A stretch of 63,777 nucleotides of DNA, filler included, from Reclinomonas americana ATCC 50394 (taxonomy: Eukaryota): NCBI GenBank assembly GCA_048213135.1. It is 15 parts of 15 records of this genome, joined end to end, with 100 filler letters (N's around TTAATTAATTAA, not from the genome) between each part and the next. Parts side by side here need not be neighbours in the genome. Positions count along the whole stretch, not along the records: positions 36,157 to 41,866 come from AFZH01021626.1; positions 41,967 to 44,728 come from AFZH01021627.1; positions 44,829 to 46,287 come from AFZH01021628.1; positions 46,388 to 56,431 come from AFZH01021629.1; 11 more parts are not named here. One strand, given 5' to 3'. Under the pieces are notes generated by a model. The model did not search any database and was not told where the DNA came from. It was given only the letters and a program-made list of their open reading frames with translations. Shown piece by piece: positions 36,266 through 51,270 of this stretch. Positions within the stretch are counted from its first letter, which is position 1; each line of letters begins with the position of its first letter. The position numbers and the translations under genes were made by a program.

Positions 36266-36380
36266 CTCCCCTTCCTCCCTCCCCTTCCTCTCTCCCCTCC
36301 CTCTCCCTCCCCTTCCTCTCTCCCCTTACTCCCTCTCCTCCACCTATCCCTCCTGCCCTTCTCTCACTTGCTCGCCGCAG

Positions 36381-37578
36381 CCGACCTGCTGTCCCCGGAG
36401 GAACCCGATCGCATCTTCACCGACTTGGTGAAGCTGGACGAGGGCTCGAGCGGTGCCGTGTATCGCGGTGTCGACAGTCGCGACGGAACGGTGGTGGCCA
36501 TCAAGATCATTCAGATTCGTGCCGACACCAAGCTGGAGTCGCTGGAGAACGAAATTGCCATTCTGCAGACATGCGTGCACCCCAACATTGTGAAGTACAT
36601 TGGATCGTACTCGAAGGGCTCGGATCTGTGGGTGCGTATAAGCGCTGCTGCTCCTCACTGTCGCTTTGATGGCTGACTCAATCCTCGAAACCCCCCACAC
36701 GCACACACAGCTGGTGATGGAGTTTATGCAAGGCGGCAAGCTGACCGACGCGCTGCTTCCTCGGCGGTTCAATGAGGCGGAGATTGCCACTGTGTGCTTG
36801 CATTCGTTGCGCGGACTGGGCTACTTGCACGAGGCACAGCTGGTCCATCGTGATATCAAGAGTGACAATGTGTTGCTGGGTGCGAGGGGAGAGATCAAAG
36901 TTGGTGAGTTTGAATTGGGAAAGGGCAAAGTTTGTGTGATTTATTTTCCGTCTCAGGGACGAGAGAGTCTCTCTGTGCATCGCACTGTTACTTACTCTTC
37001 TCTCGACGCTCGCAGCGGACTTTGGTTTCTGCGCGGAGCTCACGGAGGGTGCTCAGAAGCGCCGTTCAGTGGTCGGCACACCGTACTGGATGGCGCCGGA
37101 GGTGATTCGTGGCATCGACTACGACACAAAAGTGGACATTTGGAGCATGGGCATTATGGCGCTGGAGTTGGCCGAGGGCGAGCCACCGCTGTTGGACTTG
37201 CCGCCGCTGCGAGTTTCGTGGGCGGTGGAGAGTGCAGTGTTTAGCAACTTCCCTTTCTGCGTGTGCACACATCGTTGCTCATCGGCGTATCGATCCTCCC
37301 TTGTGTGCTATATCCCCCTTCCTCCTCCCTTCCTCCCCCGTTCCCTTGTCCACTCATCCCTTCTTTTTTTTCGGCAGGCCCTCTTCGTGATCGCCACACA
37401 ACCACCCCCAACGCTGAAGGATGCCAGTCGCTGGACGCCCGAGTTCCGCGACTTTTTGGCTCGCTGCCTGGCCAAGCTGCCACAGCAACGCGCGACGGCT
37501 GCGGAGCTGCTGGCGCATCCGTTCATTGCCGGTGCATCGGAGGACACGAGCTTTATCCGCGATCTCATCCCTCGCTAG
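36381..37578 (+). CDS. PAK/STE20 family Ser/Thr kinase; 5' partial, 4 exons
   Basis: Exons at 36381-36631, 36711-36903, 37016-37212 and 37378-37578; motifs VAIK, HRDIKSDNVLL, ADFGFCA, VGTPYWMAPE and AEGEPP. Confidence 0.93.
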
Positions 37579-37827
37579 TGTGGATCAACAGCATGCATGC
37601 CCGCCCGCCTGCTTGTCAGGAGGCCTTGGTGTTGGTCGCTTTGTTTTCGCTTTCTCGCTGCCGCTGTTTCTTTCCCCCCTTCTACTTTTGCTCCTGCTTG
37701 TACACACGCACACTTATCGTTACCCTGTCAAGGAAAGAATATGAACCAAAAAATGTATGTACCCGCTTGCTTACAATGAAGAGAAAGAAGGTGAATGTTT
37801 CCTTGTTCTCCAACTGTTTATTGCAGC

Positions 37828-38919
37828 TCACAATCGGCTATTGGCAAAGCATCGATGGACGACCACCTCCGCCTCCTCCACCACAAAGCACCGCAGCACA
37901 ATCTCCACCAGACAGCGCTGCTCATCCTCGTCACCCCCTTCCACGCCTTGTTGCATCTCTTGCACGACGCGCATGGCCGACCGCGCACAGTCGAGCTCCT
38001 GCTGCGCGAGATCAAAGGGAGTGGACCACACCCGCACAGTCATGTCCTGGCCACCCGCACTCGCAATGTGGCGACCGTCGAGGGAGACAGCGACAGAATA
38101 CACTGGACCAGAGTGTCCCTCCAACCGTCGTACCTCCTCTCCGCTCGCCATCGACCACACTCGCACTGTCATATCTCGACTTCCGCTCACAACATGTTGG
38201 CCGTCGGTGGAGACGGCGAGAGAGCTCACCTCGCTCGTGTGCCCCTCCAGCCGCTGCACTTCCTCGCCTGTTGCCAGCGACCACACCCGGACCGTGAGGT
38301 CCCGACCACCGCTCACCACATGCAGCCCGTCGGGAGTGACAGCGACTGACCGCACCAAGTGAGTGTGCCCCACAAACCGGCGCACTTCCTCCCCGCTCCT
38401 CACAGACCACATGCGAATGGTTTTATCTCCACTTCCGCTCACGACATGCTGACTGTCGGGCGTGACGGCGACAGACCACACGATACCCGAGTGTCCCTTC
38501 AACAGCTGCACCTCGTCTCCACTCTCCAGTGACCACACTCGCACATTCGTGTCGAAACTGCCGCTCACGACATGCTGACCGTCGGGGGTGACAGTGATAG
38601 AGAACACAGTGTCAGTGTGACCTTTCAAAAGCCGCACTTCGTCACCACTCGCCAGTGACCACACTCGCACAGTGAAATCCCGACCACCACTGACAATGTG
38701 CTGGCCGTTGGGAGTGAGGGCGACACACATTGCGACGCGCGTGTGACCCATCAATCGTCGCACTTCTGCGCCACTCTCCACTGACCACACTCGCACTGAC
38801 ATGTCGGCTCCACAACTCACAATGTGCATGCCGTCGGCAGTGACAGCGATGGAGTACACACTGTTTGTGTGTCCGCGCAGGCACTTGCTGGGGAGAGAGG
38901 GTGGAGGTGGCGAGGACAT
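37828..38919 (-). CDS. WD40 array copy 1 (7 blades + conserved tail)
   Basis: Intronless; seven 42-aa GH...SG.D.TVRVWS repeats. Confidence 0.9.
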   Translation of the reverse strand: MSSPPPPSLPSKCLRGHTNSVYSIAVTADGMHIVSCGADMSVRVWSVESGAEVRRLMGHTRVAMCVALTPNGQHIVSGGRDFTVRVWSLASGDEVRLLKGHTDTVFSITVTPDGQHVVSGSFDTNVRVWSLESGDEVQLLKGHSGIVWSVAVTPDSQHVVSGSGDKTIRMWSVRSGEEVRRFVGHTHLVRSVAVTPDGLHVVSGGRDLTVRVWSLATGEEVQRLEGHTSEVSSLAVSTDGQHVVSGSRDMTVRVWSMASGEEVRRLEGHSGPVYSVAVSLDGRHIASAGGQDMTVRVWSTPFDLAQQELDCARSAMRVVQEMQQGVEGGDEDEQRCLVEIVLRCFVVEEAEVVVHRCFANSRL

Positions 38920-39179
38920 GGTGCGTGCGAGAGAGGTACGTACGTAAGAAGCTGTAAGAGAGAGAGAGAGTGTTGCTTGTCCTCCACGGCAGGGACATAT
39001 GTTGTCGAAAAGCACGTCAGCGACCCGTGGGTGAATTTTTACTGCACGGAAACTGCAGGGAAGGCAACACTGCTTTTGCAGTCACCACATATAACCTCGT
39101 GAGAAAAAATGCACGGAAAGGAAAGAGAGAAAGAGAGAAGGACGCTCTTCCATGCCAGGTGAAGTTCACTGCATCACGA

Positions 39180-39897
39180 TCACAGTCGGAGACTGCTGTC
39201 AGTAAAGCACCGATAAACCACGACCTCTGCCTCCTCCACCAGAAAGCAGCGCAGCACAATCTCCACCAAGCAGCGCTGCTCCTCCGCATCACTTACTTCC
39301 ACATCTTGTTGCATCTCCTGCACCACGCGCATGGCCGTCCGCGCACAGTCGAGCTCCTGCTGAGCGAGCCCAAATGGAGTGGACCACACCCGCACACTCA
39401 TGTCCTGACCACCTGCACTCGCAATGTGGCGACCGTCGGGGGAGACAGCGACGTAATACACATCACGAGTGTGTCCCTCCAACCGACGCAGCTCATCTCC
39501 ACTCGCCAGTGACCACACTCGCGCTGTCTTGTCCTGGCTTCCGCTCACTATATACTGGCCATCAGGAGTGACGACGACAGTATATCCACGAAGAGTGTCC
39601 CTCCAATCGTCGAACTTCCTCGCCAGTCGCCAGCGACCACACTCGCACCGTTCTGTCAGCGCTCCCGCTCACTACATGCTGATCATCGGGAGTGATGGCG
39701 ACACACATAACTGCGAGCACGTGACCCACCATTCGCCGCAGCTCTTCTCCACTCTCCACAGACCACACTCGAACTGTGAGGTCGGCTCCACCACTCACAA
39801 TGTTCATGCCGTCGGGAGTGACGGCGACGGAGTACACACAGCCTGTGTGTCCGCGCAGGGTCTTGCAGGGGAGAGGGAGTGGAGGAGGAGACGACAT
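39180..39897 (-). pseudogene. WD40 array copy 2 (4 blades, frameshift near 39575)
   Basis: Two ORF halves in different frames, and about 3 repeats shorter than its siblings. Confidence 0.75.
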
Positions 39898-40231
39898 CGA
39901 GTGCGTGCGCGTGACTCGTGATTTGTCGCTTGTCCTCCACGGAAGGGACATATCTTGCCGGAGACTTGCGTCGTCGCTTGTCAACGCTGTGATGCAACAT
40001 GACGGAGTTTACTGAACGGAAACTGAAGCAGCGGGATAGATCCCCGTTGCGTTCACAAGAGAGCGTGAATGTCTCGAGAGGGACTATCGTGAAAACGGAC
40101 AGACTGTGAAAAGGGAGGAGGAACGAGGGAAAGAGGGAGGGAGGGAGGGAGGGAGGGAGGGAGACAGAGAGGGAGGGAGAGAGAGAGAGAGAGTCACTCT
40201 TCCATAACAGGCGAAACTCGCTGCACCACGA

Positions 40232-41555
40232 TCACAGTCCGAGACTGCTGTCAGAGAAGCACCGATTAACCACGACCTCAGCCTCCTCAACCAAGAAACA
40301 GCGAAGCACAATCTCCACCAGGCATCGTGAATTCTCATCGTCACCCTCTTCCACTTTTTGCTGCATCTCCTGCACGATGCGCATGGCCGTCCGCGCACAC
40401 CCCTGCTCCTGACGAGCGAGCCCGCACGGCGTCGACCACAAACGCACCGTCGTATCCAAACCACCACTCATTAGTTTTGACCCGACGGTGAATGTGACAG
40501 GATGCAGCTCTTTGACCCTTAACCCTTAACCCGGGGGCCCCTACCCTTGACCCTTTGCTCTTGACCGTTGGCTTCCTGGGCCCTTGACCCTTAACCCGAG
40601 TGTGGGGCAAAAGTTGTGTCTTGCGCAAGTCGCGAAATGTAAGTAGAGACTCCGATTTGCATGACCAACTGTCGCAGTGCATCTTCACATTACTAGATAC
40701 AATGTGCTCACCGTCACGTGCAACGGTGACAGCATACACATCACCAGCGTGTCCCCCCAGCCGTCGCACTTCCTCGCCACTCGCCAGTGACCACACGCGT
40801 ACAGTTCTGTCACCGCTCCCGCTCACTACATGTTGGCCGTCGGGAGTGACGCTGACTGACCACACGGTGTCAGTGTGACCTTTCAACTGCCGAAGCTCCT
40901 CTCCACTCGAAAGTGACCACAGCCGCAGTATTCTGTCCTCGCCGCCGCTCACAATTAAGCAACTGTCTGGCGTGATGGCGACCGACCGCACCCCATTTGT
41001 ATGGCCTTCCAACCGTCGCACTTCCTCGCCACTCACCAGAGACCACACACGCACCGTGGTGTCAGCGCTGCCACTCACGACATGCTGACCATCGGGAGTG
41101 ACAGCGATTGAATGCACATTGCTAGTGTGTCCCTCCAGTCGCCGCATCTCCTCTCCGCTCGCCAGTGACCACACCCGCACTGTCATGTCCTGGCCTCCGC
41201 TCACGACGTGCTGGCCATCGGGAGTGACGACGGCAGATAACACCCACGCAGAGTGTCCTTTCATCAGCCGCAATTCCTCACCATTTGCCAGCGACCACAC
41301 TCGCACAGTTCTATCAGCGCTCCCGCTCACTATGTGCTGACCATCGAGAGTGAGGGCGACAGACATCACCCACCCAGTGTGTCCCTCCAATCGCCGCACT
41401 TCAGCGCCGCTTTCCACTGACCAGAAGGTCACTTCCGTGCCGGCTCCACCACTCACGAAGTGCAGCCCATCAGCAGTGAAGGCGAAAGAAAACACACTGT
41501 CTGTGTGCCCGCGCAAACACTTGCAGGGCAGAGAAGGCGGAGGAGGAGACGCCAT
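40232..41555 (-). pseudogene. WD40 array copy 3, disrupted by a 229-bp insertion in blade 7
   Basis: HIV|SGGLDTTVRLW is split by the insertion relative to the paralogue at ~45130. Confidence 0.85.
40471..40699 (-). mobile_element. Small insertion, Helitron-like ends, internal TTAAGGG/TCAAGGG repeats
   Basis: Absent from the paralogue. The minus strand reads A|TCTAGT...GTCGGGTCAAAACTAA|T, with no clear target-site duplication. Confidence 0.5.
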
Positions 41556-41785
41556 CAAGTGCGTGTGCGTGACTCCGTCGTTCGTGATTTGTCGCTTGTC
41601 CTCCACGGCAGGGACATACGTTGTCGAAGACGAAGCACGTCAACGACCCGCTGGGTGAAACAACTGCACGGAAACTGAAGTAGCAGGGAAGGCAACACTG
41701 CTTTCGCAAATAAAGGGAGACAAAACGACGGACGCATACTATACAAACAAATGAGAAATTGGCAATAACAGAGAGAGAGAGAGAT

Positions 41786-41827
<42 letters not shown>

Positions 41828-41966
41828 AGAAAGAGTGGTCTCGACAAGAGACGGCCACTGCGTCACNNNNNNNNNNNNNNNNNNNNNNNNNNNNNNNNNN
41901 NNNNNNNNNNTTAATTAATTAANNNNNNNNNNNNNNNNNNNNNNNNNNNNNNNNNNNNNNNNNNNN

Positions 41967-42967
41967 AAGCAACGAGGATCCTCCTCGTCACCTCCATCCA
42001 CATCTTGTTGCATCCCTTGCACGATACGCATGGCCGTCCGCGCACAGTCGAGCTCATGGCCAACAAGACCACACGGCGTCGACCATACTCGCACAAGCGA
42101 GTCCCCACCCGCACTCACTACGTGCTGTCCATTGGGTGAGATGGCGACAGACCACACCGATCCGGTGTGTCCCTCCAACCGCTGCAGTTCCTCGCCAGTC
42201 GCCAGCGACCACACCCGCACTGTTTTGTCCCCACTCCCGCTCACTGCATGCTGCCCGTCGTAGGTGATGGCAACAGACGACACCCAGGCCGTATGGCCCT
42301 CCAGCCGTCGCACTTCTCGTCCACTCGCCAGTGACCACACCAGCAACGTCATGTCCACACTCGCACTCACGGCATGTTCACCATCGGGAGCGACAGCAAC
42401 TGACATCACCGCGCCCATATGCCCCGCGAACAGTTGCACCTGTTCTCCGCTCGCCAGTGACCACACGCGCACCGATGTGTCGTCACTCGCACTGACAACG
42501 ACGTGACCAGTGGGAGAGACGGCAACGGATCGCACAGCGCCCAAGTGCCTCTCCAACCGTCGCACCTCCTCGCCACTCTCCATTGCCCACACCCGCACAG
42601 TGTTGTCTCGGCCACCACTGACTATGTGCCGACCATCGGGTGTGACGGTGACGGACCACACCACACCAACGTGTCCCTCCAATCGCCACACTTCTGCGCC
42701 ACTCGCCAGCGACCACACGCGCACAGTGCCGTCAACACTACCACTGATAATCAACTCCCCACTGGGTGCAACAGCAACAGACCACACGAAGAGAGTGTGG
42801 CCTTCCAACCGACGCACTTCGTCGCCACTCGCCAGTGAACACACTCGCACTGTCTTGTTCTCATTCCCGCTCACCAAGTGCTGACCATCGGGAGTGACGG
42901 CGACAGACGACACCGTCAGAGCGTGCCCATCATGCAAGCACATGCAGGGGAAATACAAGGACGACAT
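41967..42967 (-). CDS. WD40 array copy 4; 3' truncated by a gap
   Basis: Seven repeats plus the start of the conserved tail. Confidence 0.88.
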
Positions 42968-43200
42968 GAGCGTGCGACAGTGTGTGGAGAATATGTCCTT
43001 CAGGGAAGGGACAAGACCACCTACACCCACAGTACGGGTACGGTAACTTGCCAACGCTGTAGAGAGTGCTGCTGCACGATTGTTTATTGCGTGTGAAGAA
43101 ACGGAACGACGAACTGAAGGATCGGCAGTGACGCAACAAACTTCAGAGGTGAGGGAGGGAGGAAGGGAGGAAGGGAGAGAGAGAGGAGAAAAGACGCTCT

Positions 43201-44310
43201 TTACCAAGAGAGGTCCACTCGGAGACTAGTACTGCTACCGGTGAAGCACCGATGGACAACAACCTCTGCCTCTTCCACCAGGAAACAGCGCAGCACAATC
43301 TCCGCCAGGCATCGTGGGTCTAACTCCTCCTCTTCCACGTCTTGCTGCATCTCCTGCACGATGCGCACGGCCGTCCGCGCATACTGGAGCTCCTGTTGAG
43401 CAAGCCCGCACGGCGTCGACCACACTCGCATCACGTCTTTATGGCAGCCACTCACAATGTGCTGACTATCTGAAGCAATAGAGACACAATACACAACACC
43501 CATATGCCCCTCCAACCGTCGTACCTCCTCTCCGCTCGCCAGTGACCACACGCGCACTGTCATATCTCGACTTCCGCTGACAACATGTCGGCCGTCGGTG
43601 GAAACAGCGACAGAGCTCACAGATACAGTGTGTCCGGCCAACCGTCGCACTTCCTCGCCACTCACAAGTGACCACACCCGCACCGTCTCGTCATAACTGC
43701 CACTGACAACATGCTGGCCGTCGGGAGTGACAGCAACAGACCGCACCCAGCCAGTGTGTCCCTCCAACCGGCGCACTTCCTCCCCACTCGTCAGCGACCA
43801 CACTCGCACCGTCTTGTCCCAACTCCCGCTCACGACATGCTGACTGTCGGGGGTGACAGCAACAGACCACACGATACCCGAGTGTCCCTCGATCCGTCGC
43901 ACCTCTTCACCGCTCACCATTGACCACACCCGTATAATCTTGTCAGAACTCCCGCTCACGACATGCTGACCGTCGGGAGTGACAGCGACAGAGAAGACCC
44001 TCTTAGAGTGTCCCTCCAGTCGTCGAACTTCCTCTCTCGTCGCCAGAGACCACACTCGCACAGTGTTGTCAGCGCTCCCACTCACGATATGCTGACCATC
44101 GGGAGTGACAGCAACAGCGAGCACCCAGCCAGTGTGCCCTTCGAATCGTTGCAGCTCTTCTCCACTCGCCAGAGACCAGATGCGCACTGTCATGTCGGCT
44201 CCACCACTCACAATGTGCATGCCGTCGGCAATGACGGCGACGGAGTACACACTGTTTGCGTGCCCGCGCAGGCACTTGTAGGGGAGAGAAGGCGGAGGTG
44301 GCGAGGACAT
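43201..44310 (-). CDS. WD40 array copy 5
   Basis: Starts MSSPPPPSLPYKCLRGH; seven repeats and the tail. Confidence 0.9.
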   Translation of the reverse strand: MSSPPPPSLPYKCLRGHANSVYSVAVIADGMHIVSGGADMTVRIWSLASGEELQRFEGHTGWVLAVAVTPDGQHIVSGSADNTVRVWSLATREEVRRLEGHSKRVFSVAVTPDGQHVVSGSSDKIIRVWSMVSGEEVRRIEGHSGIVWSVAVTPDSQHVVSGSWDKTVRVWSLTSGEEVRRLEGHTGWVRSVAVTPDGQHVVSGSYDETVRVWSLVSGEEVRRLAGHTVSVSSVAVSTDGRHVVSGSRDMTVRVWSLASGEEVRRLEGHMGVVYCVSIASDSQHIVSGCHKDVMRVWSTPCGLAQQELQYARTAVRIVQEMQQDVEEEELDPRCLAEIVLRCFLVEEAEVVVHRCFTGSSTSLRVDLSW

Positions 44311-44529
44311 CGAGTGCGTCTGAGTGGACTTTGTCGCGTGTCCTCCGCGGCAGCGAAGGGACATCTCGTGTCGGAAGGTCTCAAGCACGTCACCGATCAA
44401 CGCTGGGCGACACAGCATGACTGTTTACTGCGTGGAGAATAAGATATCAGCCCTGCTTTCGCAAGACAGTGGGAATGCCATGAAAATAGACGCGTACAAT
44501 GGAAACAGATGAGACATTGGCAACAACAA

Positions 44530-44598
<69 letters not shown>

Positions 44599-44889
44599 GA
44601 CGACGACGACGTACGTACGTACGTACGTACGTACGTACGACGTACGACGTACGACGTACGTACGACGTACGTACGTACGACGTCGTACGTACGACGACGA
44701 CGAACGAACCGTACCGTACCGTACCGAANNNNNNNNNNNNNNNNNNNNNNNNNNNNNNNNNNNNNNNNNNNNTTAATTAATTAANNNNNNNNNNNNNNNN
44801 NNNNNNNNNNNNNNNNNNNNNNNNNNNNGAGAGAGAGAGAGGGAAAGCAGGACGCTCTCCCATGCCAGGTGAAGTTCAGTGCGCCATGA

Positions 44890-45985
44890 TCACAGTCGGA
44901 GACTGCTGTCAGTGAAGCACCGATAAACCACGACCTCTGCCTCCTCCACCAGGAAGCAGCGGAGCACAATCTCCACCAGGCAACGTGGATCCTCCCTGTC
45001 GCCATCTCCTTCGCAGTCTTGCTGCATCTCCTGCACGATGCGCATGGCCGTCCGCGCATACTGGAGCTCCTGTTGAGCAAGCCCGCACGGCGTCGACCAC
45101 AAACGCACCGTCGTATCCAAGCCACCACTCACAATGTGCTCACCGTCACGTGTAACGGCGACAGCATACACATCACGAGCGTGTCCCCCCAGCCGTCGCA
45201 CTTCCTCGCCACTCTCAAGTGAACACACCCGGACTGTCTCGTCTATCCCCCCACTCACAAGGTGCAGACCGTCGGGAGCGACCGCGACACACCACACCCA
45301 GCCAGTGTGACCTTTCAACTGCCGAAGCTCCTCGCCACTCGACAGTGACCACACCCGAACCGTGAAGTCCCGACCACCGCTCACAACATGCTGCCCGTCG
45401 GGAGTGACAGCGACTGAACGCACAGCGTCGGTATGACCCGCCAACCGTCGCACCTCTTCACCACTCACCAGAGACCACACTCGCACCGTGGTATCAGCGC
45501 TGCCGCTCACGACATGCTGACCATCGGGAGTGACAGCGATTGAATACACAGTGTTAGTATGTCCCTCCAATCGCCGCACCTCCTCTCCGCTCGCCAGTGA
45601 CCACACCCACACTGTCATGTCCTGGCCTCCGCTCACGATGTGCTGGCCATCAGGAGTGACGACGGCAGAGTAAACCCAAGCAGCATGCCCCTCCAATCGT
45701 CGCTCCTCTTTTCCGCTCGCCAGCGACCACACTCGCACAGTTCTATCAGCGCTCCCGCTCACAACATGCTGACCATCGGGAGTGAGGGCGACAGACATCA
45801 CCCACCCAGTGTGTCCCTCCAATCGCCGCACTTCTGCGCCACTCCACTGACCAGATGCTCACTTCCGTGCCGGCTCCACCACTCACGAAGTGCAGCCCAT
45901 CAGCAGTGAAGGCGACAGAAAACACACTGTCTGTGTGCCCGCGCAGACACTTGCAGGGGAGAGAAGGCGGAGGAGGAGACGACAT
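44890..45985 (-). pseudogene. WD40 array copy 6, 2-bp deletion near 45845 (real or sequencing error)
   Basis: GTGGAGTGGC replaces GTGGAGAGTGGC; otherwise full length. Confidence 0.7.
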
Positions 45986-46241
45986 CGAGTGCGTGCGCGT
46001 GACTTAACTCGTGATTTGTCGCTAGTCCTCCAGGGTGGGGACATTTCTTGCCGGAGACTTGCGTCGTCGCTCGTCAACGCTGGGTGATGCAACATGACAG
46101 AGTTTACTGCACGGAAACGGAAGCAGCGGGATAGATCCCCATTGCGTTCGCAAGAGAGCGGGAATGTCTCGAGAGGGACTTTCGTGAAAACGGACAGACT
46201 GTGAAAGGGAGGCAAACGAGGGAAAGAGGGAGGGAGGGAGG

Positions 46242-46287
<46 letters not shown>

Positions 46288-46397
46288 NNNNNNNNNNNNN
46301 NNNNNNNNNNNNNNNNNNNNNNNNNNNNNNNTTAATTAATTAANNNNNNNNNNNNNNNNNNNNNNNNNNNNNNNNNNNNNNNNNNNNAGAGAGAGAG

Positions 46398-46435
<38 letters not shown>

Positions 46436-46483
46436 GGATGCTCTCCCGTGCCACCATGCAAGGTGAAGCTCACTGCTCCACGA

Positions 46484-47569
46484 TCACAGTCGGAGACTGC
46501 TGTCAGTGAAGCACCGATGAACGACCACCTCCACCTCCTCCACCAGGAAACAGCGAAGCACAATCTCCACCAGGCATCGTGGATCTGACTCCTCCTCCTC
46601 CCCCTGCATCTCCTGCACGACATGCAGTGTCGAGCGCGCACAGTCGAGTTCCTGCCGAGCGAGCCCGCACGGCGTCGACCACACCCGCACAGTCATGTCC
46701 TGGCCACCCGCACTCACAATGTGCTCACCGTCACGTGCAACGGCGACGGATCTCACCGGCCCAGTGTGTCCCTTCAACCGTCGCACCTCCTCTCCACTCA
46801 TCACAGACCACACGCGAACGGTCTTATCGCTACTGCCACTCACAACGTGCCGACTGTCAGGGGAAATAGAGACAGAGTGCACTCTGTCAGTGTGTCCCTC
46901 CAGCCGGCGCAGCTCCACGCCACTCGCCAGCAACCACACTCGCACTGTTCTATCAACGCCCCCACTCACAATCAGCTGGTTGTCCGCAGAGACGGCCACA
47001 GAGAGCACCGAACCAGCGTGACCCTTCAGTCGTCGCACTTCTTCTCCACTCTCAATGGACCACACTCGCACGGACGTGTCGCCACTTCCGCTCACAGCGA
47101 AAGGACTGTCAGGAGCGACGGCAACGCAGAACACCGAGAATACGTGCCCCTCCAACTGTCGCACTTCGCCTGCACTCGCCAGCGACCACACGTACACGTT
47201 CTTATCGCCGCACCCAATTACCATGTGCTGACAATCAGGCGCGACAGCGACTGCAAGGATTGCCATGTTGAAGCGCTGCGATCGTCGCACCTCTTCTCCA
47301 CTCGCCAGCGACCACATACGCACTGTGTGATCATAACACCCGCCCACAATGTGCTGCCCGTCGGGAGTGACGGTGACACAGCACACGTTATCTCTGCGCC
47401 TGCCCACCTGTCGCACCTCTTCCCCACTTGCCAGTGACCAGACGTGGACACCCTCATCGAAACTGCCAGTCACAATGTGTTGCCCGTCGGGAGTGACGAC
47501 GACGGCACGCACAGTGCCGAGCTGTCCACGCAAGGACTTGCAGCGGAGAACGCAGGGAGTGGAGAACAT
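46484..47569 (-). CDS. WD40 array copy 7
   Basis: 361-aa ORF with seven repeats and the tail. Confidence 0.9.
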   Translation of the reverse strand: MFSTPCVLRCKSLRGQLGTVRAVVVTPDGQHIVTGSFDEGVHVWSLASGEEVRQVGRRRDNVCCVTVTPDGQHIVGGCYDHTVRMWSLASGEEVRRSQRFNMAILAVAVAPDCQHMVIGCGDKNVYVWSLASAGEVRQLEGHVFSVFCVAVAPDSPFAVSGSGDTSVRVWSIESGEEVRRLKGHAGSVLSVAVSADNQLIVSGGVDRTVRVWLLASGVELRRLEGHTDRVHSVSISPDSRHVVSGSSDKTVRVWSVMSGEEVRRLKGHTGPVRSVAVARDGEHIVSAGGQDMTVRVWSTPCGLARQELDCARSTLHVVQEMQGEEEESDPRCLVEIVLRCFLVEEVEVVVHRCFTDSSLRL

Positions 47570-47689
47570 GCGTGTGCGCGCAGAGTGTGTCTAATGTGTC
47601 CAGGACTTCAGATATCTGCAAAGGTCGAAGTCTATCGTGGACCCTGGCTGGCTGCAGCTGCACATCGCGCGACCCTTTATTCACAGATC

Positions 47690-48757
47690 TCACAGTCGGA
47701 GACTGTCATCGACAAGGCAATGGTGAACGACCACCTCCGCCTCCTCCACCACAAAGCACCGCAGCACAATCTCCACCAAGCAGCGCACATCATCCTCTTC
47801 CTCCTCCCGCTGCATCTCCTGCACGACATGCAGTGTCGAGCGCGCACAGTCGAGCTCCTGTCGAGCGAGACCACACGGCGTTGACCACACGCGAACAATC
47901 GTATCGTCGCAGCCGCTCACCATGTGCTGCCCGTCGGGAGAAAAGGCGATGCTGCGCGCAAAGTCGGGGTGTTGCGGCAGTCGTCGCACTTCGTGTCCGC
48001 TCGCCAGCGACCACACTCTCACCAGCTGGTCGCCGCTCCCCGTGGCAAAGTGCAGATCATCGGGAGCGACGGCGACACACGACACCCAGTCAGTATGATA
48101 CTCCAAGGATCGCAGGTGCTGGCCACTGGTCAGCGACCACACACCGTGACCGCTGACGACGTGCTGACCGTCGCGAGTGATGGCCACTGCTGAGACTCCA
48201 CCGCAATGTCCTTCCAACAGTCGCACCAGCTCGCCACTCGCCAGCGACCACACGCGCACCGCATCATCGTAGCCTCCACTAACAATGTGGAGGCCATCTG
48301 GCGTGACAGCCACGGTGAACACCGCGCCACTGCGTGCATCCAATCTGCGCACCTGCTCCCCACTCGCCAGCGACCACACGCGCACGGTCTCGTCCCCACT
48401 CCCACTCACCACATGCTGGTCATCGGGTGTCACCGCAACAGTCAGCACTCCCTGCTTGTGCCCCTCCAATTTGCGCACTTGTTCACCACTGACCAGCGAC
48501 CACACGCGCACAGTCGTGTCCAAGCTCCCGCTCACCACGTGTCGACTGTCGTGCGTCACAGCAATGGACCACACAAAGTTGGAGTGACCCTCCAGTCGAC
48601 GCACTTCCTGGCCACTGGCAAGAGACCACACACGTATGGTCTTGTCGAAACTCCCCGTGACGATGTGGTGCCCGTCGCGGGTGAAGGCGATTGACCGGAC
48701 TGTGCCCAGGTGCCCTCGCAGGTGCTTGCACGTGAGTGGGCAGGCAGGTGAGGACAT
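47690..48757 (-). CDS. WD40 array copy 8
   Basis: Starts MSSPACPLTCKHLRGH; blade 5 is shortened. Confidence 0.88.
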   Translation of the reverse strand: MSSPACPLTCKHLRGHLGTVRSIAFTRDGHHIVTGSFDKTIRVWSLASGQEVRRLEGHSNFVWSIAVTHDSRHVVSGSLDTTVRVWSLVSGEQVRKLEGHKQGVLTVAVTPDDQHVVSGSGDETVRVWSLASGEQVRRLDARSGAVFTVAVTPDGLHIVSGGYDDAVRVWSLASGELVRLLEGHCGGVSAVAITRDGQHVVSGHGVWSLTSGQHLRSLEYHTDWVSCVAVAPDDLHFATGSGDQLVRVWSLASGHEVRRLPQHPDFARSIAFSPDGQHMVSGCDDTIVRVWSTPCGLARQELDCARSTLHVVQEMQREEEEDDVRCLVEIVLRCFVVEEAEVVVHHCLVDDSLRL

Positions 48758-48951
48758 GGTAGGCGTGGAGTCGTGAGACGATACGTAAGAAAGAGTTGTC
48801 CTTGAAAGAAGGGACGAGTCTGCACGTCGGAACGTCGGCACTGGGTGTCGTTGCACGACTGTTTACTGAACTCGGAGAGGCCAAGCGATCGTGGAAGGAG
48901 GCACGCACAAACACACTGGGAAAGAATGTAAAGAGAGAGACGACTCTCCGC

Positions 48952-50043
48952 CTACAATGAAAAACCACCATCGGCAAAGCACCTGTGGACAACCACCTCC
49001 GCCTCCTCCACCAGGAAGCAGCGCAGCACAATCTCCACCAGGCGTCTTGGATCGTCCTCATCTCCCCCTTCGCTGTCTTGTTGCATCTCTTGCACGACGC
49101 GCATCGCGGAACGGGCGCAGTCGAGCTCCTGCTGAGCGAGACCGCTCGGCGTGGACCACACTCGCACCGTATCGTCGTCACTCCCACTCACTATGTGATG
49201 ACCATCGGGAGTGGTGGCCACGCATTCCACCGCATAATAGTGACCGTGCAGTCGGCGGACTTCCTTGCCCGTGGCCAGTGACAAAACACGCACCGTCTCG
49301 TCTTCGCCCCCAGTCACCACGTACCGACCATCGGGAGTGACAGAGATCGATTTGACAAAGCCAGCGTGCCCCTCCAACCACCGTACCTCCTCCCCACTCG
49401 CCAGTGACCGCACTCGCACTGTCTCCTCATAACTGCAACTCACTATGTGCTGGCCATCGGGAGTGACAGCAACACAGGATACCCAGTCGGTGTGCCTATC
49501 AAGTCGTCGCACCTCAGCTCCACTCGCCAGGGACCACACGCGCACACTGCCATCCGCGCTCCCACTCACCACGTGCTGACCATCGGGAGAGACAGCGACT
49601 GACGACACCGTCGTGGTGTGTCCCTTCAACTGTCGCTCCTCAGCGCCACTCGCCAGTGACCACACACGCACGGTCTTATCAGCACTTCCACTGACTATGT
49701 GCAGGCCATCGGGAGTGACAGCAACCGAGGTCACACTCAAGTGGTGAGTCGTCGGCCGTCGCACCTCTTTTCCACTTGCCAGTGACCAGACACGCACGGA
49801 GTGGTCCCAGCTCCCACTTACCACGTGCCGACCGTCGGGAGTGACGGCGACACCGTGCACAGCATCCGTGTGTCCCTTCAGCAGTCGCACCTGCTGGCCA
49901 CTTGCCAGTGACCACACCCGGATCCTTCTGTCACCACTCCCGCTGACGATGTGCTGGCCATCGGGAGTGATGGCGACTGCGTACACTGAGTCAGTGTGCC
50001 TGCGCAAGCACTGGCATGGGAGAGAACGAGGAGTTGATGACAT
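48952..50043 (-). CDS. WD40 array copy 9
   Basis: Starts MSSTPRSLPCQCLRRH; seven repeats and the tail. Confidence 0.9.
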   Translation of the reverse strand: MSSTPRSLPCQCLRRHTDSVYAVAITPDGQHIVSGSGDRRIRVWSLASGQQVRLLKGHTDAVHGVAVTPDGRHVVSGSWDHSVRVWSLASGKEVRRPTTHHLSVTSVAVTPDGLHIVSGSADKTVRVWSLASGAEERQLKGHTTTVSSVAVSPDGQHVVSGSADGSVRVWSLASGAEVRRLDRHTDWVSCVAVTPDGQHIVSCSYEETVRVRSLASGEEVRWLEGHAGFVKSISVTPDGRYVVTGGEDETVRVLSLATGKEVRRLHGHYYAVECVATTPDGHHIVSGSDDDTVRVWSTPSGLAQQELDCARSAMRVVQEMQQDSEGGDEDDPRRLVEIVLRCFLVEEAEVVVHRCFADGGFSL

Positions 50044-50184
50044 GGTGAATGCGTGACGAAGTGTGTGAGAAAGTGAGTGTCCTTTGAAGGGGACACTTCT
50101 CTTGATTGCACGTCGGGACGTGTGAGTGATGCCACAACACAGTTTTACTGCAAACCAAGACAACTTCTCGACCTTCGTCTCCCG

Positions 50185-51270
50185 CTACGAAAAGAAACTG
50201 TTGCCACTGGAGAGTCGATAAACAACAACGCTTGCCTCCTCGACGATGAAGCATCGCAGCACGATCTCCGCCAAGCAGCGACGCCCCAGCTCCGTGTCAT
50301 CATCTTGCTGCATCGCCTGCACAGTGCGCATCGCGAACCGGACGTAGTCAAGCTCCTGCTGAGCGAGGCCGCACGGCGTGGACCACACTCGCACCGTCTC
50401 GTCGTTAGCCCCACTCACAATGCGATGACCGTCGGGAGTGATGGCCAAACAATGCACCGTGCCACTGTGACCCTCGAGTCGTCTTACTTCAATGCCAGTC
50501 GCCAGGGACCAGACACACACCGTCTCGTCCTCACCACCAGTCACCACGAACCGACCATCGGGAGCAACAGCGATTGCCAAGACCAATCCGGTGCATCCCT
50601 CCAACTGTCGCACTCCTTCTCCACTCGCCAGCGACCACACTCGCACGGACCTGTCAAAGCTGCCGCTAACAATGTGCTGGCCATCGGGAGTAACAGCAAC
50701 GCACGATATCCAGTTAGTGTGCCCGACCAGCAGTCGCACCTGCTCTCCAGTCGCCAGTGACCACACACGCACAGTGTGGTCCCAGCCCCCACTGACAATG
50801 TGCTGCCCATCGGGAGTGACGGCGACTGGGTCCACACCTGTGCTGTGTCCCTCCAACCGTCGCACTTCTTCTCCACTCGCCAGTGCCCACACTCGCACGG
50901 TCGTGTCCTCGCTCCCACTCACCACATGCCGACCATCGGGCGTGACGGCAACAGAGCGCACCTGACCAGTGTGTCCCTCCATCCGCCGCACCTCCTCACC
51001 ACTCGTCAGAGACCACACTCGCACAGTGGTGTCCCAGCTCCCACTCACAGCATGCTGACCATTGGGGGTGATCGCAACACAGTTCACCCACTTCGCGTGG
51101 CCCTCCAATCGTCTCACTTTGTCGCCACTTGCCAGTGACCACACCTGCAATGTGTTGTCAAAACTCCCGCTCACAGCATGCTGACCGTCGGGAGTGACAG
51201 CGACAGCGAACACTGAGTCAGTGTGACCGCGCAAACACTTGCATAAGACAGAAGAACGAGTCTCTGACAT
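50185..51270 (-). CDS. WD40 array copy 10
   Basis: 361-aa ORF with seven repeats and the tail. Confidence 0.9.
   Translation of the reverse strand: MSETRSSVLCKCLRGHTDSVFAVAVTPDGQHAVSGSFDNTLQVWSLASGDKVRRLEGHAKWVNCVAITPNGQHAVSGSWDTTVRVWSLTSGEEVRRMEGHTGQVRSVAVTPDGRHVVSGSEDTTVRVWALASGEEVRRLEGHSTGVDPVAVTPDGQHIVSGGWDHTVRVWSLATGEQVRLLVGHTNWISCVAVTPDGQHIVSGSFDRSVRVWSLASGEGVRQLEGCTGLVLAIAVAPDGRFVVTGGEDETVCVWSLATGIEVRRLEGHSGTVHCLAITPDGHRIVSGANDETVRVWSTPCGLAQQELDYVRFAMRTVQAMQQDDDTELGRRCLAEIVLRCFIVEEASVVVYRLSSGNSFFS

What the first reader, a model, noticed from the sequence alone, without database searches (positions are those of the whole stretch)
37828..51270. Tandem array of 10 intronless WD40 genes with hypervariable positions: candidate protist immune or recognition repertoire
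Seen: ten co-oriented genes of up to about 1.1 kb, without introns, in a genome whose other genes are intron-dense. The 42-aa repeat scaffold is nearly invariant, but residues in GH(T/S)-XX-V-X-(S/C)V and SG(S/G)-X-D-X vary widely (e.g. DW, GW, NT, SE, HL; W/F/Y/A/R/G). Three copies are damaged. Known: fungal HNWD/HET-E receptors have internally conserved WD40 repeats with diversifying top-face residues. Inference: a birth-and-death family of ligand sensors lacking the NACHT domain.
Basis: partly seen in the sequence, partly recalled or inferred. Interest (0 to 1): 0.7.

Follow-up and report, generated by a model that had tools for sequence, protein, structure and literature searches.

The report
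Tandem WD40 propeller genes, variable faces
A protist genome carries a row of ten small, intron-free WD40 propeller genes that keep their scaffold and an unknown tail constant while the binding face changes, like a panel of recognition proteins with unknown targets.

Summary
Ten WD40 genes lie on the minus strand between 37828 and 51270. Six are intact (355-369 codons), one is cut by a gap and three are damaged. The window is a chain of 15 contigs joined by artificial 100-bp linkers. Linkage is therefore proven only within contigs (3+2+1+4 genes), although the repeat unit continues in phase across all three gaps.

- **Fold:** The tail is under purifying selection (dN/dS 0.22). It matches no Pfam or PDB family and has only three relatives among 1.84 billion representatives.
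- **Variation:** variability concentrates at repeat positions 12, 13, 15, 31 and 33, in the D-A loop, the start of strand A and the B-C turn. Positions 13, 15, 31 and 33 keep the spacing and flanking pattern of the four positively selected Podospora HNWD codons.
- **Selection:** my own ML codon model gives omega 1.7 there against 0.25 elsewhere, and 0 of 40 null simulations reach the observed value. Counting methods give 0.7-1.2.
- **Family membership:** there is no NACHT domain, no 85% internal repeat identity and no concerted evolution, so these are not HNWD members.

The best reading is a birth-and-death repertoire of binding adaptors with a common tail. Immune function is untested.

The parts
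37828..38919 (-). g1: intact WD40+tail gene, 363 codons
   Evidence: ORF; start; Pfam WD40 7 stretches
39180..39897 (-). g2: damaged copy, 4 blades, apparent 2-nt deletion in blade 3, tail intact
40232..41555 (-). g3: copy interrupted in blade 7; tail in another frame
40466..40694 (-). 229-nt insertion in g3 blade 7; no GT-AG ends; GGGTTAA-like repeats; no other copy in window
41867..41966 (.). artificial linker N44-TTAATTAATTAA-N44 (contig join) that removes the end of g4's tail
41967..42967 (-). g4: 7 blades, tail cut after about 40 residues by the linker
43201..44310 (-). g5: intact gene, 369 codons (modelled copy)
43204..43422 (-). tail-coding segment of g5. Others: g1 37831-38028, g2 39183-39386, g3 40235-40435, g6 44893-45099, g7 46487-46681, g8 47693-47887, g9 48955-49158, g10 50188-50385
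   Evidence: alignment A1; dN/dS 0.22
44729..44828 (.). artificial linker (contig join) between g6 and g5
44890..45985 (-). g6: apparent 2-nt deletion near 45844 at the blade 1/2 junction; blades 2-7 and tail open
46288..46387 (.). artificial linker inside a (TC)n tract between g7 and g6
46484..47569 (-). g7: intact gene, 361 codons, most divergent blades
47690..48757 (-). g8: intact frame, 355 codons, 5-codon in-frame deletion in blade 5
48952..50043 (-). g9: intact gene, 363 codons
50185..51270 (-). g10: intact gene, 361 codons
38979..38996 (-). upstream palindrome GTCCCTnCCnTGGAGGAC, 60 nt before the g1 ATG
39932..39949 (-). same palindrome, 35 nt before the g2 ATG
41598..41615 (-). same palindrome, 43 nt before the g3 ATG
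42995..43012 (-). same palindrome, 28 nt before the g4 ATG
46025..46042 (-). same palindrome, about 40 nt before the g6 ATG
48798..48815 (-). same palindrome, 41 nt before the g8 ATG
50079..50094 (-). same palindrome (shorter spacer), 36 nt before the g9 ATG
39038..39043 (-). AGTAAA hexamer 139 nt after the g2 stop. Like hexamers (A[AG]TAAA) follow g1 (+8), g3 (+221), g5 (+115), g8 (+11), g9 (+87), g10 (+38). Read as candidate poly(A) signals (inference)

Best explanation
This is a lineage-specific multigene family that evolves by tandem duplication, blade exchange and gene loss. Each gene encodes a small protein, probably cytosolic (inferred). The protein is one closed 7-bladed WD40 propeller followed by a family-specific tail of about 65 residues.

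The propeller scaffold and the tail are held constant by purifying selection. Four positions per blade turn over at or above the silent rate and are rich in aromatic residues. That makes 28 such positions per protein, all in the D-A loops, the first residues of strand A or the B-C turns. By WD40 topology these elements form the top face.

The most likely mechanism is inferred, not shown. Each paralog would bind a different protein or peptide ligand on its top face. The invariant tail would connect all of them to one common partner or complex. The array would then be a panel of interchangeable recognition adaptors. A shared palindrome 28-60 nt upstream of the start codons suggests common regulation.

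It is open whether the ligands are foreign (defence) or endogenous (for example substrates).
For: **Fold**
- Pfam WD40 gives 6-7 stretches in each of the 6 intact genes scanned, of 10 genes in all.
- The AlphaFold model has 28 strands in 7 blades at pLDDT above 90.
- The closest solved structure is the Thermomonospora WD40 domain 5yzv, at 40% identity and rmsd 1.0.

**Real paralogs**
- Blades are 65-94% identical at the nucleotide level.
- The whole-gene model gives omega 0.31 and a tree length of 6.85 substitutions per codon.

**Variable face**
- Entropy peaks at positions 31, 15, 13, 33 and 12.
- In the model these lie in the D-A loop, the start of strand A and the B-C turn.
- Positions 13/15 and 31/33 flank conserved V14 and D32. 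They are spaced as HNWD codons 7/9 and 25/27 are around codons 8 and 26.
- 59 distinct 5-residue combinations occur among 61 blades.

**Selection**
- The a-priori set 13, 15, 31, 33 gives omega 1.73 against 0.25 for the rest, with 2dlnL 22.4 against omega = 1.
- M2a beats M1a with 2dlnL 14.1.
- With a reduced fitting procedure the real data give omega 1.50 and 2dlnL 16.6. No null simulation reaches this: 0 of 20 without recombination and 0 of 20 with shuffled blades, where simulated omega was 0.78-1.15.
- W+F+Y make up 22% of these residues against 5.4% expected from codon frequencies, and Pro and Val are depleted. The sites are therefore not simply unconstrained.

**Tail**
- 27 columns are invariant across the 9 tails aligned, and dN/dS is 0.22.
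- The same tail follows two very divergent propellers, P0004 and P0005, and the transcript-derived ORF P0002.

**Exchange and loss**
- Per-blade nucleotide identity between g3 and g6 is 94, 83, 93, 69, 75 and 94%.
- g6 blade 5 is closest to g1 blade 5.
- Three copies are damaged.

**Shared upstream element:** the exact pattern occurs before 7 of 10 genes, and variants are seen by eye before the other three.
Against: - No ligand, partner or expression datum exists for these ten genes.
- Counting estimates (NG86) at the variable sites do not exceed 1. They are 0.82 pooled and 0.68, 0.91 and 1.2 in the three closest gene pairs.
- Synonymous differences are near saturation, with pS 0.55-0.67.
- The ML model is my own script. 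It uses branch lengths fixed up to a scale and F3x4 codon frequencies. It includes no variation in synonymous rate and no multi-nucleotide changes.
- Only 2 of 294 codons reach posterior above 0.9 under M2a.
- The tail is modelled at pLDDT 41-63, so its fold is unknown.
- Three of ten copies are damaged.
- The assembly is a draft, so the two 2-nt deletions and the 4-blade copy could be assembly errors.
- Array order across the three gaps is inferred.
Confidence: 0.55

Rival explanations
1. This is an ordinary redundant paralog expansion. The top-face positions are simply unconstrained and drift neutrally. There is no diversified ligand set, and the family is decaying.
For: - NG86 dN/dS at the variable sites is about 0.7-1.2.
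- Synonymous sites are near saturation.
- 3 of 10 copies are damaged.
- In any WD40 protein these loops are the least conserved positions (general knowledge).
Against: - The ML partition rejects omega = 1 in favour of 1.5-1.7, and 0 of 40 null simulations reach that value.
- Residue use at these sites is far from the mutational expectation: aromatics 22% against 5.4%, with Val and Pro depleted.
- The scaffold and the tail are under clear purifying selection, at 0.23-0.25 and 0.22. The proteins are therefore maintained.
Confidence: 0.2
2. These are substrate receptors of a shared enzyme complex, for example a ubiquitin ligase. The tail would dock to the complex and the propellers would select endogenous substrates. 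This is housekeeping or regulatory diversification, not defence.
For: - The layout is a variable propeller plus an invariant short C-terminal module.
- The tail is conserved even on very divergent propellers, P0004 and P0005.
- Expanded receptor families of this logic exist, such as WD40-SOCS-box and F-box proteins (recalled, not from a call).
Against: - The two window tails scanned (of 9 aligned) match no SOCS-box or other Pfam family at E up to 5.
- The tail profile matches no PDB sequence better than E = 1.
- No partner is known.
Confidence: 0.2
3. The propeller genes were acquired from bacteria by horizontal transfer and then amplified. This is a statement about origin and is compatible with any function.
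For: - The genes are intron-free beside an intron-containing kinase gene.
- The closest propellers are metagenome proteins with nearly the same repeat at 52-59% identity. Bacterial MAG and genome loci reach 31-52%.
- The closest solved structures are bacterial or designed propellers.
Against: - Regular, consensus-like WD40 repeats resemble each other across kingdoms, so identity is weak evidence of transfer.
- No bacterial locus carries the tail.
- The tail does occur in a EukProt transcript-derived ORF.
- GC3 does not separate the WD40 genes (0.63-0.71) from the kinase exons (0.70-0.78) or the bacterial ORFs (0.68-0.80).
- No phylogeny was made.
Confidence: 0.2
4. This is an assembly artefact: haplotypes, collapsed repeats, or bacterial contamination mistaken for a eukaryotic array.
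For: - The window is a chain of short contigs with artificial linkers.
- It holds about 23 kb of bacterial contigs.
- g2 has only 4 blades, and two copies carry 2-nt deletions.
Against: - The copies differ by 6-35% and have different top-face residues.
- Three or four copies lie on single contigs.
- The contig carrying g1-g3 also carries a kinase gene with GT-AG introns, (TC)n tracts and AATAAA-type signals.
- No reads could be examined.
Confidence: 0.04

Closest known systems
WD-repeat domains of Podospora anserina HNWD/NWD genes (het-e, het-d, het-r), as described in Paoletti et al. 2007 (PMC1805685; passages read) and Dyrka et al. 2014 (PMC4986451; passages read)
   Same: - 42-residue WD repeats.
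- Two pairs of highly variable codons flank a conserved residue, one pair in the d-a loop and one in the b-c turn. HNWD codons 7/9 and 25/27 correspond to positions 13/15 and 31/33 here.
- There are several paralogs, pseudogenes, and exchange of repeats between loci.
   Different: - No NACHT domain and no N-terminal effector domain.
- A fixed 7 blades, where at least 10 repeats are needed for HNWD incompatibility activity.
- Within-gene repeat identity is 49-66% (maximum 81%) against about 85% or more.
- No concerted evolution: blades are slightly closer to the same-index blade of other genes (0.675) than to other blades of their own gene (0.635).
- A unique C-terminal tail.
- The genes form a tandem array.
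Highly regular bacterial WD40 propellers: Thermomonospora WD40 domain 5yzv, 'highly repetitive propeller' 2ymu, metagenome proteins P0006/P0008/P0016/P0031, and the Gemmatimonadales MAG locus L001
   Same: - Nearly the same repeat text (...VAVTPDG..VVSGS.D.T.R.W.LA.G.E.R...GH...).
- 52-59% identity to the metagenome proteins and 31-52% to the bacterial loci.
- 38-40% identity and rmsd 0.9-1.0 to 5yzv and 2ymu.
- The variable residues sit at the same repeat positions (by eye).
   Different: - The bacterial proteins are 465-686 residues. They have long N-terminal regions or about 14 blades.
- None has the tail.
- The genes here are stand-alone 7-blade units in a eukaryotic array.
P0002 (116 aa, EukProt transcript-derived ORF), P0004 (394 aa) and P0005 (381 aa) from the 1.84-billion-protein representative library
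   Same: - All carry the same C-terminal tail, with profile E-values of 2.7e-23, 1.2e-6 and 1.1e-4.
- The tail directly follows a beta-propeller.
- P0002 is 55-64% identical to the last blade plus tail of all ten copies.
   Different: - P0004 and P0005 have irregular, weakly WD40-like propellers, 22-29% identical to the copies here.
- Their organisms and genomic context are unknown.
Expanded substrate-receptor families with a constant docking motif and a variable recognition domain (WD40-SOCS-box, F-box-WD40). Named from recall, not from a call
   Same: A small constant module is attached to a variable propeller, and there are many paralogs.
   Different: No SOCS-box, F-box or other Pfam match in the tail or the N-terminus.

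Membership tests
WD40 beta-propeller (Pfam PF00400) | Several WD40 repeats above the Pfam gathering score | tested here: met
   6-7 stretches and 208-260 bits against a cut-off of 27 in each of the 6 genes scanned, of 10 genes in all
WD40 beta-propeller (Pfam PF00400) | Closed 7-bladed propeller with four strands per blade | tested here: met
   The model has 28 strands at pLDDT above 90 over residues 11-298. Foldseek gives 5yzv at rmsd 1.0 and 40% identity. This is a prediction, not a solved structure.
Fungal HNWD / NACHT-WD NLR | NACHT (STAND) NTPase domain N-terminal to the repeats | tested here: not met
   The 25 best Pfam families listed for each gene are all propeller families. The ORFs start 8-17 residues before blade 1. 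Neighbouring genes lie 120-330 nt apart.
Fungal HNWD / NACHT-WD NLR | N-terminal effector domain (HET or other) | tested here: not met
   Same as above.
Fungal HNWD / NACHT-WD NLR | High internal repeat conservation (over 85% identity; Dyrka 2014) | tested here: not met
   Within-gene blade amino-acid identity has a mean of 0.49-0.66 and a maximum of 0.81 in 9 genes.
Fungal HNWD / NACHT-WD NLR | Concerted evolution of repeats within and between loci | tested here: not met
   Nucleotide identity is 0.635 within a gene, 0.675 between genes at the same blade index, and 0.631 between genes at different indices. Only occasional blade exchange is seen.
Fungal HNWD / NACHT-WD NLR | Variability concentrated on two codon pairs, in the d-a loop and the b-c turn | tested here: met
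   Entropy peaks at positions 13/15 and 31/33, around conserved V14 and D32. Loop assignment comes from the model. The spacing matches HNWD codons 7/9 and 25/27.
Fungal HNWD / NACHT-WD NLR | dN/dS above 1 at those codons | tested here: inconclusive
   My own ML model gives omega 1.73 with p about 2e-6, and 0 of 40 null simulations reach the observed value. NG86 counting gives 0.68-1.2.
WD40-SOCS-box type substrate receptors | Recognisable SOCS box (or other docking motif) at the C-terminus | tested here: not met
   No Pfam family at E up to 5, apart from one chance-level hit at 0.11, in the 2 window tails scanned of 9 aligned. The PDB profile search gives nothing better than E = 1.
Bacterial NLR-related multi-domain WD40 proteins | Long N-terminal region and/or a double propeller | tested here: not met
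   The relatives are 465-686 aa with N-terminal regions or about 14 blades. The genes here have 7 blades plus a tail.

The most novel reading that the evidence does not exclude
A non-self recognition repertoire that needs no NACHT domain. Each stand-alone propeller would sense a different foreign (viral, bacterial or allogeneic) protein on its fast-evolving, aromatic-rich top face. The invariant 65-residue tail would be a new signalling or effector-recruiting domain shared by the whole panel. New specificities would arise by tandem duplication and blade swapping. This would be a protist counterpart of the fungal and bacterial WD40 sensor domains with a different output module.
Probability: 0.2. 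Interest if true: 0.8.

Novelty: new variant of a known kind. Interest (0 to 1): 0.5.

Why it matters
WD40 propellers with a constant scaffold and a diversifying top face are known as the sensor halves of fungal NACHT-WD receptors. Closely similar regular repeats occur in long bacterial multi-domain proteins. Here the same design stands alone, in a tandem array in a protist, and is fused to a conserved tail that matches no Pfam or PDB family.

If the tail proves to be a docking or signalling module, the family would show a new way to couple a diversifiable recognition domain to an output. It would also give a compact, testable system: ten genes of 1.1 kb each, with 28 variable residues per protein. 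If it proves to be an ordinary adaptor family, it still defines a new conserved domain with very few relatives in current sequence collections.

Tried and rejected
- **Whole genome:** none is held, so genome-wide copy number could not be counted.
- **Sequencing runs:** No reads were laid, so expression, haplotypes and mis-assembly could not be tested.
- **Word-based search with the tail:** 12 candidates, none scored.
- **Atlas search on the tail:** no usable hit.
- **Tail profile against metagenome contigs and genome contigs:** 150 and 281 pattern matches, and none was confirmed.
- **Complex prediction with two copies of the tail:** no answer.
- **First simulation run:** discarded. The optimiser stalled at its starting value. 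It was redone with a bounded one-dimensional fit.
- **g3 insertion as an intron:** rejected as a canonical intron, because neither possible excision has GT-AG ends. A non-canonical intron or a small mobile element remains possible.
- **Zinc site in the tail:** rejected. Only one Cys is invariant in 9 tails.
- **C-terminal -SRL as a peroxisomal signal:** present only in g1, so rejected as a family feature.
- **The generic palindrome GTCC-N7-13-GGAC:** not enriched in the window (10 found, 9.4 expected). Only its specific form and its position before the WD40 genes are notable.
- **GC3:** does not discriminate origin.
- **Earlier-findings look-ups:** returned nothing relevant.
- **Literature searches:** among the papers listed, none describes such a family. 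This covers only the open-access library searched.

Full report
**What the window is.** The 63,777-base window is not one molecule. It consists of 15 segments joined by 14 identical 100-bp linkers, each 44 N, TTAATTAATTAA, then 44 N.

- Segments 13106-36056 are bacterial. They encode a family-5 solute-binding protein, a MobA/MobL relaxase, methionyl-tRNA synthetase and a phage-type integrase.
- The rest looks eukaryotic. The kinase gene at 36368-37579 (+) has three GT-AG introns of about 78-165 nt.
- Three linkers (41867, 44729, 46288) cut the WD40 array. Physical linkage is therefore shown only for g1-g3, g4-g5, g6 alone and g7-g10.
- On both sides of each of these gaps the sequence continues the same unit layout: a conserved stretch after the stop codon, a (TC)n tract, an A(A/G)TAAA hexamer, the palindrome and the ATG. 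I read the three linkers as scaffold gaps and the order as probably real, but this is an inference.
- No whole genome is held and no sequencing run was listed. Copy number, haplotypes, mis-assembly and expression could not be tested.

**The observation.**

- tblastn with one copy finds ten loci, all on the minus strand between 37837 and 51252, and nothing elsewhere in the window.
- Six copies are open from ATG to stop at 355-369 codons: g1, g5, g7, g8, g9 and g10.
- g4 loses the end of its tail in a gap.
- g2 keeps only four blades and has an apparent 2-nt deletion. g3 carries a 229-nt insertion in blade 7 without GT-AG ends. g6 has an apparent 2-nt deletion at the blade 1/2 junction.
- g8 has an in-frame loss of five codons in blade 5.
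- The genes lie 120-330 nt apart.
- Pfam finds 6-7 WD40 repeats in each of the six intact copies scanned. The 25 best families listed for each are all propeller models.

**Anatomy of the protein.** The AlphaFold model of g5 was built on an 11-row alignment of paralogs and three distant relatives.

- It has 28 strands forming seven four-stranded blades at pLDDT above 90. The N-terminal strand closes the last blade.
- Foldseek places it closest to the Thermomonospora WD40 domain 5yzv (40% identity, rmsd 1.0), designed symmetric propellers, and the 'highly repetitive propeller' 2ymu.
Nine tails align with 27 invariant columns, and their pooled dN/dS is 0.22.
- The model gives a helix, an acidic linker, a second helix and a hairpin, but only at pLDDT 41-63. 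The fold is therefore unknown.
- The two window tails scanned match no Pfam family at E up to 5, and the tail profile matches no PDB sequence better than E = 1.
- A profile search of 1.84 billion representatives finds four proteins. One is a spurious hit to a repetitive protein.
- The other three carry the tail directly after a propeller. P0002 is a 116-residue ORF that labels as a EukProt transcript-derived ORF. It is 55-64% identical to the last blade plus tail of all ten copies.
- P0004 and P0005 have irregular propellers only 22-29% identical to these copies.
- The tail is thus an independent, conserved and very rare module. At least one family member exists as a transcript in some protist.

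**Where the variation lies.** I extracted 58 blades in register and 62 after handling four with indels in a script. The four blades of g2 and blade 1 of g6 were left out.

- Entropy is highest at repeat positions 31, 15, 13, 33 and 12 (3.1-3.6 bits). It is below 1 bit at the scaffold positions.
- In the model, positions 12 and 13 lie in the D-A loop. Position 15 is the second residue of strand A. Positions 31 and 33 flank the conserved Asp of the B-C turn.
- Paoletti et al. 2007 (passages read) describe four strongly selected codons in Podospora HNWD repeats. They form two pairs, 7/9 and 25/27, around conserved codons 8 and 26. One pair is in the d-a loop and one in the b-c turn, on top of the propeller.
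- Positions 13/15 and 31/33 here have the same spacing and the same flanking logic.
- Among 61 blades there are 59 different five-residue combinations.
- Residue use at these sites is not what mutation alone would give. W+F+Y make up 22% against 5.4% expected from codon frequencies, while Val and Pro are depleted. Blades share ancestry, so the binomial p-values overstate significance.

**Selection.** Counting (Nei-Gojobori) gives the following dN/dS values.

| Comparison | Variable sites | Other sites |
|---|---|---|
| 215 same-index blade pairs, pooled | 0.82 | 0.22 |
| g3/g6 | 0.68 | 0.24 |
| g1/g5 | 0.91 | 0.26 |
| g9/g10 | 1.2 | 0.28 |

Synonymous differences are near saturation, with pS 0.55-0.67.

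I then wrote a Goldman-Yang type codon likelihood. It used 9 of the 10 genes (g2 left out), 294 codons, an IQ-TREE topology, and branch lengths fitted under one ratio.

- The one-ratio model gives omega 0.31 and a tree length of 6.85 substitutions per codon.
- The five most variable positions have omega 1.61 against 0.23 for the rest (2dlnL 19.4 against omega = 1). This set was chosen after looking at the data.
- The set fixed in advance from the Podospora pattern (13, 15, 31, 33) has omega 1.73 against 0.25 (2dlnL 22.4).
- M2a beats M1a (2dlnL 14.1). About 5% of codons fall in a class with omega 2.9, but only 2 of 294 codons pass posterior 0.9. Both are in blade 5, at positions 31 and 33.
- I simulated the null with omega = 1 at those sites. 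The trees were re-estimated for each replicate. One set had no recombination and the other had tip labels shuffled separately for each blade.
- With the same reduced fitting procedure the real data give omega 1.50 and 2dlnL 16.6. The simulations gave omega 0.78-1.15, and 0 of 20 plus 0 of 20 reached the real value. An earlier run was void because the optimiser stalled.

My reading is that the top-face sites turn over at least as fast as silent sites. The likelihood analysis favours diversifying selection, but the home-made model and the counting results leave this unsettled.

**How the family evolves.**

- Blades are 65-80% identical in nucleotides in most comparisons. The closest pairs reach 94% for g3/g6, 88% for g1/g5 and about 79% for g9/g10.
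- Identity along g3/g6 runs 94, 83, 93, 69, 75 and 94% by blade. Blade 5 of g6 is closest to blade 5 of g1. Blades have therefore been exchanged between copies.
- There is no concerted evolution in the Podospora sense. Mean nucleotide identity is 0.635 within a gene, 0.675 between genes at the same blade index and 0.631 at different indices.
- Within-gene amino-acid identity is 49-66% with a maximum of 81%. This is below the 85% used by Dyrka et al. 2014 to define high internal conservation.
- Together with three damaged copies, this is birth-and-death evolution with occasional exchange.

**Regulatory layout.**

- Each stop codon is followed at 8-221 nt by A(A/G)TAAA in 7 of the 9 copies whose downstream sequence could be read. 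In g6 and g7 the downstream sequence runs into a linker.
- About 100-115 nt further on lies the next ATG.
- A palindrome of the form GTCCCTnCCnTGGAGGAC lies 28-60 nt before the ATG in 7 of 10 copies. Variants with a longer or shorter spacer are seen by eye before g5, g7 and g10.
- The loose pattern GTCC-N7-13-GGAC is not enriched in the window (10 found, 9.4 expected). However, 7 of the 10 hits are these sites.
- I take the hexamers as candidate poly(A) signals and the palindrome as a shared promoter or 5'-UTR element. Both are inferences.

**Relatives of the propeller.**

- A word-based search found 2,676 proteins with E at or below 0.001 among 8,000 scored. The 120 listed are 31-59% identical over 60-96% of the query.
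- Of the five I read, four (P0006, P0008, P0016 and P0031) carry almost the same repeat text, with variable residues at the same positions. All four are 552-621 residues long with long N-terminal regions. The fifth, P0113 (465 residues), carries a closely related repeat.
- In one genome per prokaryote species, 286 of 338 pattern matches were confirmed. The best 80 are 31-52% identical and come from many phyla. The top locus encodes a 686-residue protein with about 14 blades.
- No prokaryotic contig matched the tail profile, and in most of the 80 loci the match ends by about residue 325, before most of the tail.
- An origin of the propeller by transfer from bacteria is possible. I did not test it by phylogeny.

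**Mechanism and verdict.**

- *Shown:* a real tandem family; a 7-blade propeller; a conserved new tail; variation focused on the D-A loop, the start of strand A and the B-C turn; purifying selection elsewhere; blade exchange; gene decay.
- *Inferred:* each paralog binds a different ligand on its top face; the tail links all paralogs to a common partner; the genes are co-regulated.
- *Not shown:* any ligand, any partner, expression of these copies, or any link to defence.

The family fails three defining tests for HNWD or NLR membership: the NACHT domain, 85% repeat identity and concerted evolution. It may work like the sensor half of such receptors, but it is not one of them. I rate it a new variant of a known kind. 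Four literature searches listed no description of a stand-alone WD40 array of this type. That covers only the open-access library searched.

Noticed in passing
whole window; linkers at 7219, 13006, 16002, 18262, 23963, 28142, 32994, 36057, 41867, 44729, 46288, 56432, 58932, 61495: The window is 15 contigs joined by identical 100-bp spacers (N44, TTAATTAATTAA, N44), which give a stop in all six frames. Neighbouring segments are not necessarily linked in the genome.
   Followed up: yes
13106-36056: Six consecutive segments look bacterial, with GC 0.58-0.67 and long ORFs. They encode a family-5 solute-binding protein, a glyoxalase-like protein, a MobA/MobL relaxase, an AAA ATPase, methionyl-tRNA synthetase and a phage-type integrase with DUF6538. 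They may come from a contaminant or an associated bacterium, possibly including an integrative mobile element.
   Followed up: partly
40466-40694 (-): A 229-nt insertion sits in blade 7 of g3. It has several GGGTTAA/GGGTCAA-like heptamers and a predicted stable fold (-65 kcal/mol, no shuffle control). It has no GT-AG ends and no second copy in the window. It could be a small mobile element or a non-canonical intron.
   Followed up: partly
just 3' of the stop codons of g2 (39180), g3 (40232), g6 (44890), g7 (46484): The first 40-45 nt after the stop are conserved between these four copies and contain a short palindrome (GTGAAnTTCAC-like). A (TC)n tract follows. This may be a 3'-UTR element.
   Followed up: no
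36368-37579 (+): A protein kinase gene with three GT-AG introns of about 78, 110 and 165 nt lies convergent with g1. About 250 nt separate the two stop codons.
   Followed up: partly
44500-44728 and many intergenic stretches: Long microsatellites, (TC)n/(GA)n, (CA)n and (TACG)n, lie at or near contig ends. They probably explain where the assembly broke.
   Followed up: no
37828-37836 (-): g1 alone ends in -SRL, a peroxisomal-type C-terminal tripeptide. Of the 9 complete tails, six end in -L-[RSG]-L and g5 and g10 end differently. It is probably a coincidence.
   Followed up: no
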